This document shows positions 15,001 through 21,000 of a DNA stretch of 64,000 bases, in pieces. Where the stretch lies: NCBI RefSeq assembly GCF_045037415.1, contig NZ_CP173438.1. The stretch is one strand, 5' to 3'. Position numbers: made by a program. How positions within the stretch are numbered: the stretch's first letter is position 1; each line of letters starts with the position of its first letter. Source of the stretch: Escherichia coli (lineage in GTDB: Bacteria > Pseudomonadota > Gammaproteobacteria > Enterobacterales > Enterobacteriaceae).

Positions 15001-18000
15001 TTGATTGCGCCTTCCATACCTTTAACAATCAGGTCTGCGGCTTCAGTCCAACCCATGTGGCGCAGCAGTATATAAAAATTATGTATTCAACTCGCTGATA
15101 TTTAATCATAAATATTATTTTCTTGTCTTTGTATTAGCCAAAATCAACTTTATTCAACCGTTTGATTTCATTGACGTTCGTTTTTATTTTGGGGAAAGAT
15201 TTTCTCTACCATTTATATCAAAATTACAAGTCTACATTTTATTAACATCTCAATACATGTGTGGCCTTGCAAGCCATTGCGAGGCCTTATGTGTCTCAGT
15301 TTTGTCCCGCCTTGTATTACGACTTGCATAGCCAATGAAGATAAACGTGACGACAAACAAAGCAGCTGTCTTCTTTTCTTTCACACTTTCCCCACTCAGC
15401 AGCATGCATACCTTCTACTATAACTGTAGTGAATGTCTATTATGAGCGAACTGCGGACATCGTGGAGACAACATGCTGCTGGGTGCGGATATCCCATGGC
15501 ACGTCATATCGCTCGCCGTATTACTTGTTATTTTTTTGAAACGAGAAGTTGATACAATTCCTTCAGGGATAAGGCTAATAACTCATTCTTCCTGATGAGA
15601 TCTTTATCAGCGTCTATACCCTCTGCGCATGATTCATTTAAATAGTTCAGTGTTTCCTGATCATCATCCAAGCATTCATAGCTGCCTGAATAAAATTCAT
15701 CGCAACTTGCTTTGTTATTTTTGTCAATGTAACCAATGCATTGAATCACGCCTTTAACAACTTTAGCAGCAGAAAAAACAAAGTAACTGCAGTCATTTAT
15801 ATAGCGTTCAATATCAAAAATCATATAAAAATAGTGCATAGAGTGTTTTTCAATTTCAAACTCACTTGAAATCATAGCTATTTCACATTCAAGGTCTTTC
15901 AGACCATCTAACATTATGGAAAGTTTACATTGTTTTTCTTGCACAGTTTCATACTTAAATGACTCTCTCCCCTTTGCCCTGACATTTATTCTTTCTTCAA
16001 TTGCATAAATATAAGCAGGATATACACGCGACCACACTTGGTTTATTTTTAGGATTAACCGGCCTCTTTTCAGCCTTTCTTTTGTAGCTATAAATTCTGC
16101 ATATAGCGCAGCATCCTCTTCGCACCATACATCAACTTTTCGTTTATAACCCAACTTTAATTCTTTCCCTACGCATTCAGGAAACAAAGGATCAAAGTCC
16201 TTTAAGTATTCAAACTCACTTAGATAGAATCCTGTCTCATAACGATTAAATAATTTCCTAAACTCTTTCCCACTTAAGGTTTTCATTGTATCAATCACTC
16301 TGTTTTCATAAAAGCAAAGTCAACAAGATAAAACAATAAAAACTCTTACACAACCAGCTGATGTTTTTAAAATAGAGGATAATATAAGACAAGCATAACC
16401 TCGTTCACTTCAATGCTACTCCTATCGTTCTTTTGCGTCACAGAGCGCCTGCCGGACAACTGCATCATAGACCAAACGGAACTGCTTCCGTCGATTAATC
16501 AGATGGCAGCGCATAAACACGCTCAACAACCCGTTTGACTGCTTCAATTTTAAGCTCTTCGGAATAACGCTTACCGTGTAAGTCTCCCTGCAAAACGAGC
16601 TATCAACTTTTAAGGAGTCTCTGGCCCCCCTGCTTCCGCTCCTGGCACACAGCAGCCCTAGAGACAGTGGAGTAAAGTCATGGAGGCTCGGTGGGGGGAG
16701 GTGCAAATCCTCCCATACAAAAAATACGAAAATCAGTAACGGCTAGAAATCATTCAATACATGCACTCTCGAAATTGCATCAGCCAACCGCAAAACGTTA
16801 TTTCAAAGCCTACTAGCTGCCTTACTTTTTTCCTCAATAACGCGTCGCCAGCAGGAAACAACCTAATCCCTGTTTTGGGCCTCAAAGCTGCTAATGATAA
16901 TCATTTTCATTTTGTATAGGCTGTGCTATAAAACATAGCCGTTGCTATATTTGTTCTAATTTTGCTCACTATAGGTACTAAATTATGCACTCGATAAAAA
17001 AAGTAACCATGCTCTTGGGGGGGCTCGCACTCACCTGCTCGATCGCATTTCAGGCAAGTGCAACTGAAAAATTCAAGGTCATTACAACATTTACCATCAT
17101 CGCGGATATGGCCAAAAACGTGGCGGGAGATGCTGCAGAAGTCTCATCCATAACCAAGCCTGGTGCAGAAATTCATGAGTATCAGCCTACCCCTGGCGAT
17201 ATTAAACGTGCGCAGGGGGCACAACTGATTCTCGCCAATGGTATGAATCTGGAATTGTGGTTCCAACGCTTTTACCAGCATCTCAATGGGGTTCCAGAAG
17301 TAATTGTCTCTTCGGGTGTGACGCCTGTAGGGATCACCGAAGGACCCTATGAGGGCAAACCTAACCCCCATGCATGGATGTCGCCAGATAATGCTCTGAT
17401 TTACGTCGATAATATTCGTGATGCGTTGATAAAATACGATCCGGCAAATGCACAAACCTACCAACGCAATGCCGATACTTATAAAGCCAAGATTACCCAA
17501 ACCCTTGCCCCCCTGCGTAAGCAGATTACGGAACTCCCTGAGAATCAGCGATGGATGGTCACCAGTGAAGGGGCTTTTTCTTATCTCGCACGCGATTTGG
17601 GGCTAAAAGAGCTTTATCTGTGGCCGATTAATGCCGATCAACAAGGAACACCGCAGCAGGTACGTAAGGTTGTTGATATAGTTAAGAAAAATCATATCCC
17701 GGCAGTCTTTAGCGAGAGTACGATTTCCGATAAACCAGCGCGTCAGGTTGCGCGTGAAACCGGCGCACACTACGGCGGTGTGCTCTATGTCGATTCCCTG
17801 AGCACAGAAAACGGCCCGGTACCGACGTATATCGACCTTCTTAAGGTTACTACCAGTACGCTGGTACAGGGAATTAAAGCTGGGAAAAGGGAGAAATAAT
17901 GATGCAATCTGCAGGCATTGTCGTTAATGATGTTACTGTCACCTGGCGTAACGGGCACACAGCACTGCGCGATGCATCCTTCACAGTACCAAGTGGATCT

Positions 18001-21000
18001 ATTGCCGCTCTGGTTGGGGTAAACGGTTCCGGAAAATCGACGTTGTTTAAAGCGATTATGGGATTTGTGCGTCTGACCAGCGGAAAGATATCTGTTCTGG
18101 GTATTCCCACGCGACAGGCGTTACAGAAAAACCTGGTTGCCTACGTCCCTCAGTCAGAAGATGTTGACTGGTCATTTCCTGTACTGGTGGAAGATGTGGT
18201 GATGATGGGCCGCTATGGGCATATGGGTATGTTGCGTATCGCCAAAAAGAGGGATCGTCAAATTGTCACCGATGCGCTGGAACGTGTCGATATGGTGAAT
18301 TTTCGCCATCGACAAATCGGCGAGCTTTCCGGTGGACAAAAGAAACGCGTCTTTCTGGCGAGAGCGATTGCACAGCAGGGTGATGTGATCCTGCTGGATG
18401 AACCTTTTACTGGCGTTGATGTGAAAACCGAAGCCAAAATCATCAGCCTGTTGAGGGAGTTACGCGCGGAAGGCAAAACGATGCTTGTCTCAACACACAA
18501 TCTCGGATCCGTCACGACATTTTGCGATTATACGGTCATGGTCAAAGGCACCGTCCTGGCAAGCGGGCCGACAGACACCACTTTTACAGCCGAGAACCTA
18601 GAGCTGGCTTTTAGCGGCGTACTGCGCCATGTCACACTTAACGGCTCGGAAGAAAGCATTATTACTGACGATGAACGCCCTTTTGTGGCTCATCGACCGT
18701 CAGCGGTGCAGAGGGAAGAAAGATGAACGTGCTACTGGAACCCTTCAGCTATGAATATATGCTCAATGCGATGTGGGTCTCGGCGATGGTCGGCGGTCTC
18801 TGCGCTTTCCTGTCATGCTATCTGATGCTAAAAGGCTGGTCGCTGATTGGCGATGCGTTGTCGCACTCTATTGTCCCGGGTGTTGCGGGGGCATATATGC
18901 TGGGGCTTCCGTTTTCTCTGGGAGCCTTCTTTTCCGGCGGACTGGCTGCGGGCAGCATGCTGTTTCTTAACCAACGCACCCGCTTAAAAGAAGATGCCAT
19001 CATCGGTCTGATCTTCTCGTCCTTTTTTGGCCTGGGGCTGTTTATGGTGTCATTGAACCCGACATCTGTGAACATTCAGACCATCGTCCTGGGCAATATT
19101 CTGGCAATCGATCCGGCGGATATCCTGCAACTCACTATCATTGGCATTCTCTCGATCATCGTGCTTTTTTTCAAATGGAAAGATCTTATGGTGACCTTTT
19201 TCGACGAGAATCACGCCCGTGCTATTGGATTGCATCCGGGCAGATTAAAACTCCTCTTCTTCACCCTGCTGTCGGTTTCGACCGTTGCGGCGCTGCAAAC
19301 GGTTGGTGCCTTTCTGGTGATCTGTCTGGTGGTGACTCCCGGTGCAACAGCATGGTTGTTAACCGATCGTTTTCCCCGCCTGCTCATGATTGCTGTAACT
19401 ATTGGCAGTGTAACCAGTTTCCTCGGCGCGTGGGTCAGTTACTTTCTGGACGGCGCGACAGGTGGAATCATCGTGGTGGCGCAGACACTGCTGTTTCTTT
19501 TAGCATTTGTCTTTGCGCCCACCCATGGGCTTTTGGCAAATCGTCGGCGTGCGCATAAGGCGCTGGAGGATCGCTCATGATGGCATTATTACTGGAGCCA
19601 CTGCAGTTCACCTTTATGAGTCACGCACTGCTGATTTCACTGGTAGTTTCCATACCCTGTGCGCTGCTGTCGGTCTTTCTGGTCCTGAAAGGTTGGGCAC
19701 TGATGGGTGACGCGATGAGTCATGCGGTTTTTCCTGGCATCGTGCTTGCCTGGATTCTGGGGTTACCTTTGGCTACAGGGGCATTCGTCGCCGGAGTATT
19801 CTGTGCGGTGGCGACGGGATACCTGAAAGACAACAGCCGAATCAAGCAAGATACAGTGATGGGGATTGTTTTTTCTGGCATGTTTGCCGCAGGTCTGATC
19901 TTGTATATTGCAGTCAAACCAGACGTACATCTTGACCATATTCTTTTCGGCGACATGCTCGGGATAACCATCGGCGATATAATCCAGACGATGATTATTG
20001 CCGGGCTGGTTACACTTGTTATTAGCGTAAAATGGCGGGATTTTTTGCTGTTCAGCTTTGATTATCAACAGGCGCAGGTAAGCGGTTTGCATACGAGATG
20101 GCTGCATTATGGGCTGCTGTGCATGGTCTCTCTGACCATTGTGGCGACGCTGAAAGCGGTAGGTATCATTCTCTCCATTTCTCTGCTCATTGCGCCTGGC
20201 GCCATTGCGGTACTCCTGACACAACGCTTTCATATTGCGCTCCTACTGGCGACTGGCATATCGGTAATAGTGTCAATGACTGGTGTCTGGTTGTCCTTTT
20301 TTATCGACAGCGCACCAGCTCCGACGATTGTCGTCTTATTCGCGGTTTTGTTCATCATGACGTTTGCCGTTACCAGCATCAACGCACGCAAAAAGGGAAA
20401 CTCCCATACACAGGATCTGTTATCACCCAATTAGCACAACATCCGAGGACAGCAACACCCGATACTTTTTCCTGGCTTCCAGCAACGGGGTTTCTTCCTC
20501 CGTTGCATATACAGCTCACCTTTTTTCACCCACGATTAACCAACAGCCAGACCAGCAGACACGCCACCACCGGCACAGCAAAATCCATCAGGCTTGCCAC
20601 ATCCCAAGCTCGCGGATCAAAACCGCCCCACCACGGCATATTCATTCGCTTGCCATGCCCGAACATTTCAATCCAGCGATATTCTGCCTGGGTATGTTCA
20701 CGCGCAATGAAGAACGTACAACCGGCTATCGCTCCGTAAGCCCAGTTTCCGGTAAAAAGACCAACCAGTATCTGCGCAGCCACAGCACAAAGTGCATGAA
20801 GTAAGGGGCTTATATCCATTATTTCCTCCTTTCAGCTCCATTCCCGAAGCGGTGTTTCCAGCTCCACGACATAATCAGAGAATACAGAAACATCAAACAA
20901 GTCATCAAGAATGCGAATGTTGACAAAATAACCGTCATTCCGGACACAGACAGGTTCTCCCTCTTCTGTTACCCCTGTTTCTGTGTAGGTGAAACCAATT

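What the first reader, a model, noticed from the sequence alone, without database searches (positions are those of the whole stretch)
16891..20434. sitABCD metal transporter carried as prophage cargo with adjacent Fur and MntR boxes
A complete four-gene, translationally coupled ABC importer lies inside the prophage between the terminal orphan gene and the tail-fibre module, convergent with the late operon. A near-consensus Fur box and an MntR-type palindrome sit just upstream, implying iron and manganese control of a phage-borne fitness gene.
Basis: partly seen in the sequence, partly recalled or inferred. Interest (0 to 1): 0.45.

Follow-up and report, generated by a model that had tools for sequence, protein, structure and literature searches.

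The report
Phage-borne sitABCD manganese/iron importer, already known
This is the well-described sitABCD manganese/iron uptake operon that phage-21-like lambdoid prophages carry as a host-benefiting "moron" at the icd site of pathogenic E. coli, with its Fur and MntR repressor sites intact; it is real but already known.

Summary
Four intact, overlapping genes (sitA 16985-17899, sitB 17899-18726, sitC 18723-19580, sitD 19577-20434, + strand) encode a cluster A-I metal ABC importer. A 17/19 Fur box sits at 16890-16908. Just after it are two tandem MntR-type palindromes, not one (16916-29 and 16935-48). The operon lies about 1.9 kb inside a phage-21-like lambdoid prophage integrated in icd, between a 256-aa orphan gene and the side-tail-fibre module, convergent with the late genes.

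The same block is 99.2% identical in the virion-derived genome of classic phage 21 and in about 20 isolated lambda-like coliphages. Mathieu et al. 2020 reported sitABCD as a moron on 70% of infant-gut lambda phages, with a Fur box upstream. Misson et al. 2023 showed expression in a lysogen. Banerjee et al. 2020 showed by ChIP-seq and RNA-seq that sitABCD is directly repressed by Fur in CFT073, whose Fur box is identical. The island is catalogued as PAI-536-icd / PAI-CFT073-icd.

My only small addition is the tandem MntR operator. It is conserved upstream of sitA/yfeA homologues in seven genera and shared with the mntR-mntS intergenic region.

The parts
16890..16908 (+). Fur box GCTAATGATAATCATTTTC (17/19 to consensus)
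   Evidence: the only site in the window with 3 or fewer mismatches, 0.04 expected by chance. Identical in CFT073 and phage 21. A Fur-like box sits at the same relative position in 13 of 13 non-Pantoea sitA/yfeA homologue loci.
16916..16929 (.).
   Evidence: It is a perfect ATAGC-N4-GCTAT in Pantoea and other genera.
16931..16952 (.). Downstream MntR box AAACATAGC-cgtt-GCTATATTT (core 16935-16948)
   Evidence: 1 mismatch, the only such site in the window. The mismatch (A at 16949) is specific to this strain; CFT073, phage 21 and the plasmid copies have G.
16904..16932 (+). Putative sigma-70 promoter, inferred only: -35 TTTTCA (16904-16909), 17-bp spacer, -10 TATAAA (16927-16932)
   Evidence: My reading of the sequence. 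The consensus scan found no promoter here at its threshold. No transcription start site data were available.
16985..17899 (+). sitA, periplasmic Mn2+/Fe2+ binding protein (304 aa)
   Evidence: PF01297; YfeA E 4e-125; ligands H64, H129, E195, D270.
17899..18726 (+). sitB, ABC ATPase (275 aa)
   Evidence: NF011630 equivalog, 592.8 bits against a cut-off of 393. PF00005.
18723..19580 (+). sitC, permease (285 aa)
   Evidence: PF00950 ABC-3, 278.8 bits. Annotated sitC.
19577..20434 (+). sitD, permease (285 aa)
   Evidence: PF00950, 257.8 bits. Annotated sitD.
16797..20461 (+). Extent of the sit cassette shared with the plasmid (ColV/IncF-type) copies at about 96.7% identity; the flanks differ
   Evidence: plasmid matches cover query 498-4162 of window:16300-20900. 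An IS1 lies next to the plasmid copy. GC is 49.6%, against 38.3% on the left flank and 57% in the tail genes.
14904..15056 (-). Displaced icd 3' fragment marking the prophage end (context)
   Evidence: translation is the Icd C-terminus. annotates a partial isocitrate dehydrogenase. Phage 21 carries its own icd' next to attP.
15528..16298 (-). 256-aa orphan gene divergent from sitA (context)
   Evidence: phrog_20520, function unknown. No Pfam, NCBIfam or PADLOC family. Present in phage 21.
20526..23134 (-). Two small phage ORFs and the side-tail-fibre gene, convergent with sitD (context)
   Evidence: phrog_1443, phrog_1361; side tail fibre in phage 21.

Best explanation
The locus is the sitABCD operon, an ATP-driven importer of Mn2+ and Fe2+. 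SitA is the periplasmic binding protein, SitB the ATPase, and SitC and SitD the membrane permeases. It is carried as a moron (a self-contained, host-benefiting transcription unit) in the non-essential b-region of a phage-21-like lambdoid prophage integrated in icd, the element known as PAI-icd.

It has its own promoter. A Fur box overlaps the likely -35 element, and two tandem MntR palindromes overlap the likely -10/+1 region. When iron is sufficient Fe2+-Fur shuts it off, and when manganese is sufficient Mn2+-MntR shuts it off. Under host-imposed metal starvation or oxidative stress both repressors leave and the lysogen makes the transporter, independently of phage lytic genes. The phage thus spreads a metal-uptake fitness and virulence trait whose control plugs directly into host regulators.

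Shown here: gene identity, ligand class, operator sequences and their conservation, and position inside phage genomes. Shown by others: transport of Mn and Fe, Fur binding and repression, MntR repression, and expression in a lysogen. Inferred: the exact promoter hexamers and cooperative use of both MntR sites.
For: Genes and coupling.

Family and ligands.

Annotation of identical DNA as sitABCD in E. coli O25b:H4 and CFT073, inside an icd prophage.

Phage particles: the same block is in the phage 21 virion genome and about 20 isolated lambda-like phages.

Operators. The 22-specified-base tandem MntR pattern hit only 23 places in 298 Gb of species-representative genomes. Seventeen are directly upstream of sitA/yfeA homologues and 6 are in the mntR-mntS spacer. 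A Fur-like box, which was not part of the pattern, sits at the same place in 13 of 13 non-Pantoea loci.

Literature:
- sitABCD moron on 70% of infant-gut lambda phages, with a fur box (PMC6969025).
- Expressed 4-13 fold above prophage background in the LF82 lysogen (PMC9928086).
- Direct Fur target in CFT073 by ChIP-seq plus RNA-seq (PMC7157518); its Fur box is identical to the window's.
- Fur and MntR repression of sitA-lacZ in Salmonella (PMC8970401).
- Transport affinities and virulence roles (PMC3852070).
- Listed as PAI-536-icd / PAI-CFT073-icd (PMC7545054; PMC9686529).
Against: - No experiment was done on this strain.
- The window has an A for G change at 16949, in the outer part of the MntR half-site, which could slightly weaken MntR binding.
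- The consensus scan found no sigma-70 promoter at its threshold in the sitA upstream region, so the promoter placement is my inference.
- NCBIfam has no model that SitA, SitC or SitD pass at the curated cut-off; their naming rests on near-identity to annotated proteins and on Pfam, PDB relatives and ligand residues.
- The MntR consensus and the YfeA ligand numbering come from my memory of Patzer & Hantke 2001 and Radka et al. 2017. The primary sit promoter papers (Ikeda 2005, Runyen-Janecky 2006, Fisher 2009) were not available.
Confidence: 0.95

Rival explanations
1. sitABCD is not phage cargo. It is a chromosomal island or IS-borne cassette that merely lies next to, or was inserted late into, a decaying prophage, and it is no longer moved by phage particles.
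For: - The plasmid copies share only 16797-20461 and are flanked by IS1, so the cassette also moves by non-phage routes.
- GC content differs from both flanks.
- IS elements interrupt this region in some strains (H1-H4).
- This prophage carries an IS66-family insertion.
- The element is catalogued as a 'pathogenicity island'.
Against: - The identical orphan-sit-tail-fibre arrangement is present in DNA extracted from CsCl-purified phage 21 virions and in about 20 plaque-isolated or induced lambda-like phages.
- It lies between the tail-fibre genes and attP, inside the packaged genome.
- The displaced icd fragment puts sit about 1.9 kb inside the prophage end.
- The prophage in the identical record has an apparently complete set of int, xis, immunity, replication, Q, lysis, terminase, head and tail genes.
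Confidence: 0.04
2. The Fur and MntR boxes are chance AT-rich matches or relics, and the operon is expressed constitutively or under phage control.
For: The region is AT-rich. No promoter was called by the scan. Pantoea homologues lack a recognisable Fur box.
Against: - Both boxes are the only such sites in the 64 kb, with chance expectations of 0.04-0.12.
- The operator block is conserved while the surrounding upstream DNA has diverged.
- The tandem MntR pattern is found genome-wide only at Mn-homeostasis genes.
- Fur ChIP-seq and derepression were shown in CFT073, which has the identical box.
Confidence: 0.02
3. The transporter is specific for zinc or another metal rather than Mn/Fe.
For: PF01297 is named after ZnuA. 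The zinc models AztC and AztB give sub-threshold NCBIfam hits. The review reports low-affinity Zn and Cd transport by Salmonella SitABCD.
Against: - The best solved relatives are YfeA, MntC and Salmonella SitA, whereas ZnuA, AdcA and TroA are far weaker.
- The ligand set is His-His-Glu-Asp, and I saw no His-rich loop in the SitA sequence as I read it.
- SitB passes the manganese/iron equivalog.
- Operators are for Fur and MntR; I did not search for a Zur box.
- Measured affinities favour Mn2+ and Fe2+.
Confidence: 0.02

Closest known systems
sitABCD moron of Escherichia phage 21 (OL657228) and lambda-like infant-gut coliphages (LR595850-LR597653; phages Perceval, PhiR47_2)
   Same: The whole 5.8-kb block (orphan gene, 690-bp spacer, Fur and MntR operators, sitABCD, two small ORFs) is 99.2-99.9% identical. 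It has the same position between the side tail fibre and attP/icd', and the same icd integration module.
   Different: There are a few SNPs, for example A instead of G at 16949 in the MntR box. The central part of the side-tail-fibre gene differs from phage 21 (no match for 21219-22118). This prophage carries extra cargo and an IS66-family element.
PAI-536-icd / PAI-CFT073-icd / PAI-EC14142-icd of ExPEC
   Same: Same element under another name: a 46-54 kb icd-inserted island with a phi21-type integrase, the Sit system and usually Iss.
   Different: Only strain-level differences. In CFT073 the xis gene is interrupted by an IS3-family transposase, an IS21-like element interrupts an ead/Ea22-like gene, and RefSeq annotates sitA as frameshifted.
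Salmonella SPI-1 sitABCD, Shigella flexneri sit island and Yersinia pestis yfeABCD
   Same: Same four-gene architecture, same Mn2+/Fe2+ importer class, and Fur control (plus MntR except in Yersinia). The SitA ligand residues are identical to those of YfeA.
   Different: Different genomic carriers: SPI-1, other chromosomal sites, or the core chromosome. The Salmonella promoter did not match my tandem-operator pattern exactly.
Plasmid-borne sitABCD of ColV/IncF virulence plasmids
   Same: Same operon and the same Fur and MntR operator layout; 96.7% identity over 16797-20461.
   Different: Flanked by IS1 and the aerobactin region rather than phage genes. The promoter segment is only about 85% identical, and the upstream palindrome is a perfect ATAGC...GCTAT.
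mntS (rybA) promoter in the mntR-mntS intergenic region
   Same: It shares the tandem ATAGC-N4-GCTAT-AAAAN-ATAGC-N4-GCTA operator (6 of 23 genome-wide hits). This fits the published proposal that MntS descends from a SitA signal peptide that kept its MntR-controlled promoter (bioRxiv 10.1101/2023.06.02.543501).
   Different: It drives a 42-aa protein rather than a transporter, and I saw no Fur box alongside it. The window's SitA signal peptide is of the short, non-MntS-like type.

Membership tests
SitABCD/YfeABCD Mn2+/Fe2+ ABC importer (cluster A-I binding protein type) | Operon of binding protein, ATPase and two ABC-3 permeases, all intact | tested here: met
   (PF01297, PF00005, PF00950 twice). 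The identical DNA is annotated as intact sitA-D.
SitABCD/YfeABCD Mn2+/Fe2+ ABC importer (cluster A-I binding protein type) | Binding protein with the His-His-Glu-Asp metal site of the Mn/Fe class (not His3 plus a His-rich loop as in Zn binders) | tested here: met
   ungapped alignment to YfeA (5uxs) with H64, H129, E195 and D270 identical. The YfeA residue numbers H76/H141/E207/D282 are from memory.
SitABCD/YfeABCD Mn2+/Fe2+ ABC importer (cluster A-I binding protein type) | ATPase passes the curated manganese/iron equivalog | tested here: met
   NF011630, 592.8 bits against a cut-off of 393.
SitABCD/YfeABCD Mn2+/Fe2+ ABC importer (cluster A-I binding protein type) | Curated equivalog models for SitA, SitC and SitD | tested here: inconclusive
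   the best hits (EfaA, SloC, MntC, AztB) are all below their cut-offs, and no SitA/C/D-specific model appeared among the hits.
SitABCD/YfeABCD Mn2+/Fe2+ ABC importer (cluster A-I binding protein type) | Actual transport of Mn2+ and Fe2+ | not testable with these tools
   Literature only: Salmonella, APEC chi7122 and Shigella (review PMC3852070).
Fur regulon | Fur box close to consensus overlapping the promoter | tested here: met
   17/19, the only such site in the window. Conserved position in other genera.
Fur regulon | Fur occupancy and derepression in a fur mutant | not testable with these tools
   Shown for CFT073 sitABCD by ChIP-seq and RNA-seq (PMC7157518). The CFT073 box is identical to the window's.
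MntR regulon (enterobacterial DtxR-type MntR) | Inverted repeat of the AAACATAGC-N4-GCTATGTTT type at the promoter | tested here: met
   two tandem sites. The pattern is restricted to sitA/yfeA and mntR-mntS loci across species-representative genomes. The consensus itself is recalled from memory.
MntR regulon (enterobacterial DtxR-type MntR) | Mn2+- and MntR-dependent repression | not testable with these tools
   Shown for Salmonella sitA-lacZ (PMC8970401) and cited for Shigella (PMC3852070).
Phage moron (lysogenic-conversion cargo) | Lies inside the packaged phage genome and is found in virion-derived sequences | tested here: met
   (phage 21 DNA from CsCl-purified virions).
Phage moron (lysogenic-conversion cargo) | Own regulatory signals, with composition unlike its neighbours | tested here: met
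   Host-type operators. GC 49.6% against 38.3% and 57% in the flanks. No canonical terminator was found downstream, so this part of the classic moron layout is not met.
Phage moron (lysogenic-conversion cargo) | Dispensable for the phage and expressed in the lysogen | not testable with these tools
   About 30% of related lambda phages lack it (PMC6969025). It is expressed in the LF82 lysogen (PMC9928086).

The most novel reading that the evidence does not exclude
No intrinsic terminator was detected in the 91-bp gap between sitD and the converging tail-fibre module, either by my scan and fold or in the phage 21 annotation. Two things could therefore happen. Derepressed sit transcription under Fe/Mn starvation could read antisense into the side-tail-fibre genes. 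Conversely, late transcription after induction could read antisense through sitDCBA. Host metal status and virion tail-fibre production or host range would then be coupled by transcriptional interference. A smaller point: the two tandem MntR palindromes 19 bp apart may bind two dimers cooperatively. I could not find this described for sit in the papers available to me.
Probability: 0.1. Interest if true: 0.4.

Novelty: already known. Interest (0 to 1): 0.1.

Why it matters
The biology is important. A temperate phage spreads a metal-uptake system that helps E. coli, Shigella and relatives survive host-imposed manganese and iron starvation and oxidative stress, and the cargo arrives already wired to the host's Fur and MntR sensors. 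About 43% of complete E. coli genomes carry this promoter-operon, and roughly a quarter carry it in this same phage context. All of this is in the literature and in public annotation, so the finding adds no new knowledge. Its value is as a correct positive control for the scan.

Tried and rejected
- Primary sit promoter and island papers (Ikeda 2005, PMC545731; Fisher 2009, PMC2681762) are not held. I therefore could not check whether the second MntR palindrome or the transcription start is already described.
- A full-text search for 'phage 21' plus sitABCD found nothing. [quoted passage not shown]
- The sigma-70 and terminator consensus scan found no promoter in the sitA upstream region and no terminator after sitD. 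Folding the sitD-ORF97 spacer gives only an imperfect hairpin with no T-run after it.
- NCBIfam has no above-cut-off model for SitA, SitC or SitD.
- The orphan gene and the two small ORFs have no Pfam, NCBIfam or PADLOC family, only PHROGs of unknown function. The 94-aa TTG ORF at 16422-16706 matched nothing, so I could not substantiate the 'IS3 remnant' hint in the phage 21 annotation.
- Rfam gave only two sub-threshold hits, IS009 and STnc150.
- I did not use the protein-based genome scan, structure prediction or the large protein searches. Identity was settled by 100% DNA matches to annotated records.
- Rivals considered and rejected: a chromosomal island merely adjacent to a prophage, chance operator matches, and a zinc transporter.

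
Full report
**Observation**

The junctions read TAATG, ATGA and ATGA, each preceded by a GGAG-type ribosome-binding site, so the signature of translational coupling is real.

Upstream, GCTAATGATAATCATTTTC (16890-16908) matches the 19-bp Fur consensus at 17 positions. It is the only site in the 64 kb with three or fewer mismatches, against 0.04 expected from shuffles.

AAACATAGCCGTTGCTATATTT (16931-16952) has one mismatch to the enterobacterial MntR box as I recall it from Patzer & Hantke 2001, and is likewise the only such site in the window. It lies 19 bp upstream of the core of the first, ATAGC-cgtt-GCTAT at 16935-16948. The core pattern occurs nowhere else in the window (0.12 expected).

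**What the proteins are**

- SitA belongs to PF01297, SitB to PF00005, and SitC and SitD to PF00950.
- SitB passes the NCBIfam equivalog 'manganese/iron ABC transporter ATP-binding protein' at 592.8 bits against a cut-off of 393.
- No SitA, SitC or SitD model is passed at its curated cut-off, so I tested the substrate class at residue level.
- SitA's best solved relatives are Yersinia pestis YfeA (E 4e-125), Synechocystis MntC and a Salmonella SitA fragment. Zinc binders (ZnuA-like, AdcA, TroA) score far lower.
- The ungapped alignment to YfeA shows identical residues at H64, H129, E195 and D270, the His-His-Glu-Asp site of the Mn/Fe class. The YfeA numbering is from memory.

**Where it sits**

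The window is 99.998% identical over 1-40900 to E. coli O25b:H4 NZ_CP015085 and nearly identical beyond that. Annotation of that record shows the following layout:

- chromosomal genes up to bluR and ycgX;
- a displaced icd 3' fragment (window 14904-15056);
- a 256-aa hypothetical gene, then sitABCD;
- two small ORFs, a side tail fibre, J, and the rest of a lambda-like late operon;
- lysis genes, Q, the nin region, replication and immunity genes, exo/bet/gam, xis and int, with an intact icd next to int.

The window ends inside int. sitABCD is thus about 1.9 kb inside the prophage end, in the position of lambda's non-essential b-region, and convergent with the late genes.

**Is it truly phage cargo?**

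Yes. A 5.8-kb query (15400-21200) is matched over at least 80% of its length, at 99.2-99.9% identity, by 20 phage records. These include classic phage 21 (OL657228), a set of lambda-like phages isolated from infant stool E. coli, phage Perceval of strain LF82, and ECOR-derived phages.

In phage 21 the order is: side tail fibre, two small ORFs, sitDCBA, orphan gene, icd' pseudogene, attP, int. Its DNA was sequenced from CsCl-purified virions (PMC9119081).

The cassette also travels by other routes. About a thousand plasmids carry a 96.7% identical copy that shares only window 16797-20461 and is flanked by IS1 and the aerobactin region. This interval, with a GC content of 49.6% against 38.3% and 57% in the flanks, defines the mobile unit.

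**Are the operators real?**

Three lines of evidence go beyond the chance statistics.

First, comparison with a 74%-identical Pantoea homologue shows that the upstream DNA has diverged except for the block containing both MntR palindromes. The upstream palindrome is perfect there.

Second, I scanned 298 Gb of species-representative genomes with the degenerate tandem pattern ATAG-N5-GCTATAAAA-N-ATAG-N4-TGCTA, which has 22 specified bases. It hit 23 places:

- 17 lie immediately upstream of sitA/yfeA homologues in Pantoea, Erwinia, Enterobacter, Cedecea, Klebsiella, Citrobacter and Buttiauxella, plus Entomohabitans and two unclassified Enterobacteriaceae genomes;
- 6 lie in the mntR-mntS intergenic region.

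The pattern therefore marks manganese-homeostasis promoters only.

Third, a Fur-like box (AAATGATAATTATTTGCATTT), which was not part of the search pattern, sits at the same position just distal to the MntR sites in 13 of 13 non-Pantoea loci. It is absent from the four Pantoea loci.

The mntR-mntS hits fit the published proposal that MntS evolved from a SitA signal peptide that retained its MntR-controlled promoter (bioRxiv 10.1101/2023.06.02.543501).

**Mechanism**

The best-supported model is the textbook one. With iron present, Fe2+-Fur binds 16890-16908. With manganese present, Mn2+-MntR binds 16916-16952. Either one blocks RNA polymerase. Under metal limitation or oxidative stress the lysogen expresses the importer.

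I place the promoter tentatively at -35 TTTTCA (16904-16909) and -10 TATAAA (16927-16932). This would put Fur over the -35 and MntR over the -10/+1. It is inference only: the consensus scan did not call a promoter here and I had no start-site data.

**Prior knowledge**

Everything essential is published.

- Mathieu et al. 2020 found sitABCD on 70% of temperate lambda phages from infant gut E. coli. They called it a moron and noted a fur box upstream 'in all cases' (PMC6969025).
- Misson et al. 2023 showed sitA-D transcripts 4-13 fold above the prophage background in the LF82 lysogen (PMC9928086).
- Banerjee et al. 2020 listed sitABCD among operons directly repressed by Fur in CFT073, by ChIP-seq plus RNA-seq (PMC7157518). 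CFT073 carries sit in the same icd prophage, with an identical Fur box and MntR cores.
- Fur and MntR repression of sitA-lacZ in Salmonella is shown in PMC8970401.
- Transport properties and virulence roles are reviewed in PMC3852070.
- The island is catalogued as PAI-536-icd, PAI-CFT073-icd and others (PMC7545054), and as PAI-EC14142-icd in ST131 (PMC9686529).

The locus is also common. The 131-bp promoter segment occurs in 2348 of 5426 complete E. coli genomes. The cassette with its phage flanks is covered at 80% or more in 1364 genomes.

**Verdict**

The only modest additions are:

- the tandem nature of the MntR operator;
- its conservation across genera, and its inversion relative to sitA in some of them;
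- its sharing with the mntS promoter;
- a strain-specific A at 16949 in the outer half-site;
- the absence of a detectable terminator between sitD and the converging tail-fibre module, which leaves room for transcriptional interference as an untested idea.

Noticed in passing
window 48890-51691: A 2533-bp IS66-family element (ISEc23) sits at 49151-51683. This is 254 bp away from, and in the opposite orientation to, its position in the otherwise 99.99% identical prophage of NZ_CP015085. The two copies of an 8-bp target-site duplication lie at 49144-49151 and 51684-51691. It interrupts an alpha/beta-hydrolase cargo gene.
   Followed up: partly
window about 44000-58000 (by collinearity with NZ_CP015085 5059000-5076500): The same prophage carries other cargo, according to the annotation of the near-identical record: the iss/bor serum-survival lipoprotein, a TonB fragment, and a 4.3-kb inverse autotransporter gene between replication gene P and the nin region.
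   Followed up: no
window 20430-20528 (-): Sub-threshold Rfam match to IS009 (RF02111; 51.7 bits against a gathering score of 117; E 7.5e-10). It lies exactly in the sitD / 97-aa ORF spacer, at the right edge of the sit cassette. An imperfect hairpin at 20482-20505 has no T-run after it.
   Followed up: partly
window 14752-14890 (+): Sub-threshold Rfam match to the Hfq-binding sRNA STnc150 (33 bits against 60), just outside the displaced icd fragment.
   Followed up: no
window 16949: The window has A (GCTATATTT) where CFT073, phage 21 and the plasmid copies have G (GCTATGTTT, the perfect MntR half-site). At 16922 it has C where CFT073 and phage 21 have T.
   Followed up: partly
loci L007, L010, L014, L022, L024, L025 (mntR-mntS intergenic regions): The tandem MntR operator of the sitA promoter recurs between mntR and the small gene downstream in Enterobacter, Cedecea, Buttiauxella and an unclassified Enterobacteriaceae isolate. 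This is consistent with MntS having arisen from a truncated sitA.
   Followed up: partly
loci L006-L028, class with yfeA-like genes: In Enterobacter, Cedecea, Klebsiella, Erwinia, Citrobacter, Buttiauxella and Entomohabitans the asymmetric centre of the tandem operator is inverted relative to the gene: GCTATGTTTTATAGC instead of GCTATAAAACATAGC. Pantoea keeps the E. coli orientation but lacks the Fur box.
   Followed up: partly
window 15528-16298 (-): The 256-aa orphan gene next to attP is conserved in phage 21 and its relatives (phrog_20520) but has no Pfam, NCBIfam or PADLOC family. Its function is unknown.
   Followed up: partly
window 21107-23134 (-): The side-tail-fibre gene is one continuous 675-aa ORF in the window. 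RefSeq annotates the near-identical sequence (99.998% over 1-40900) as two partial pseudogenes. Its central part (21219-22118) has no megablast match to phage 21.
   Followed up: no
L030 8215-9151 (CFT073): RefSeq marks sitA of CFT073 as frameshifted, although the strain is used as the model for Sit and Fur studies. This may be a sequencing error in the 2002 assembly.
   Followed up: no
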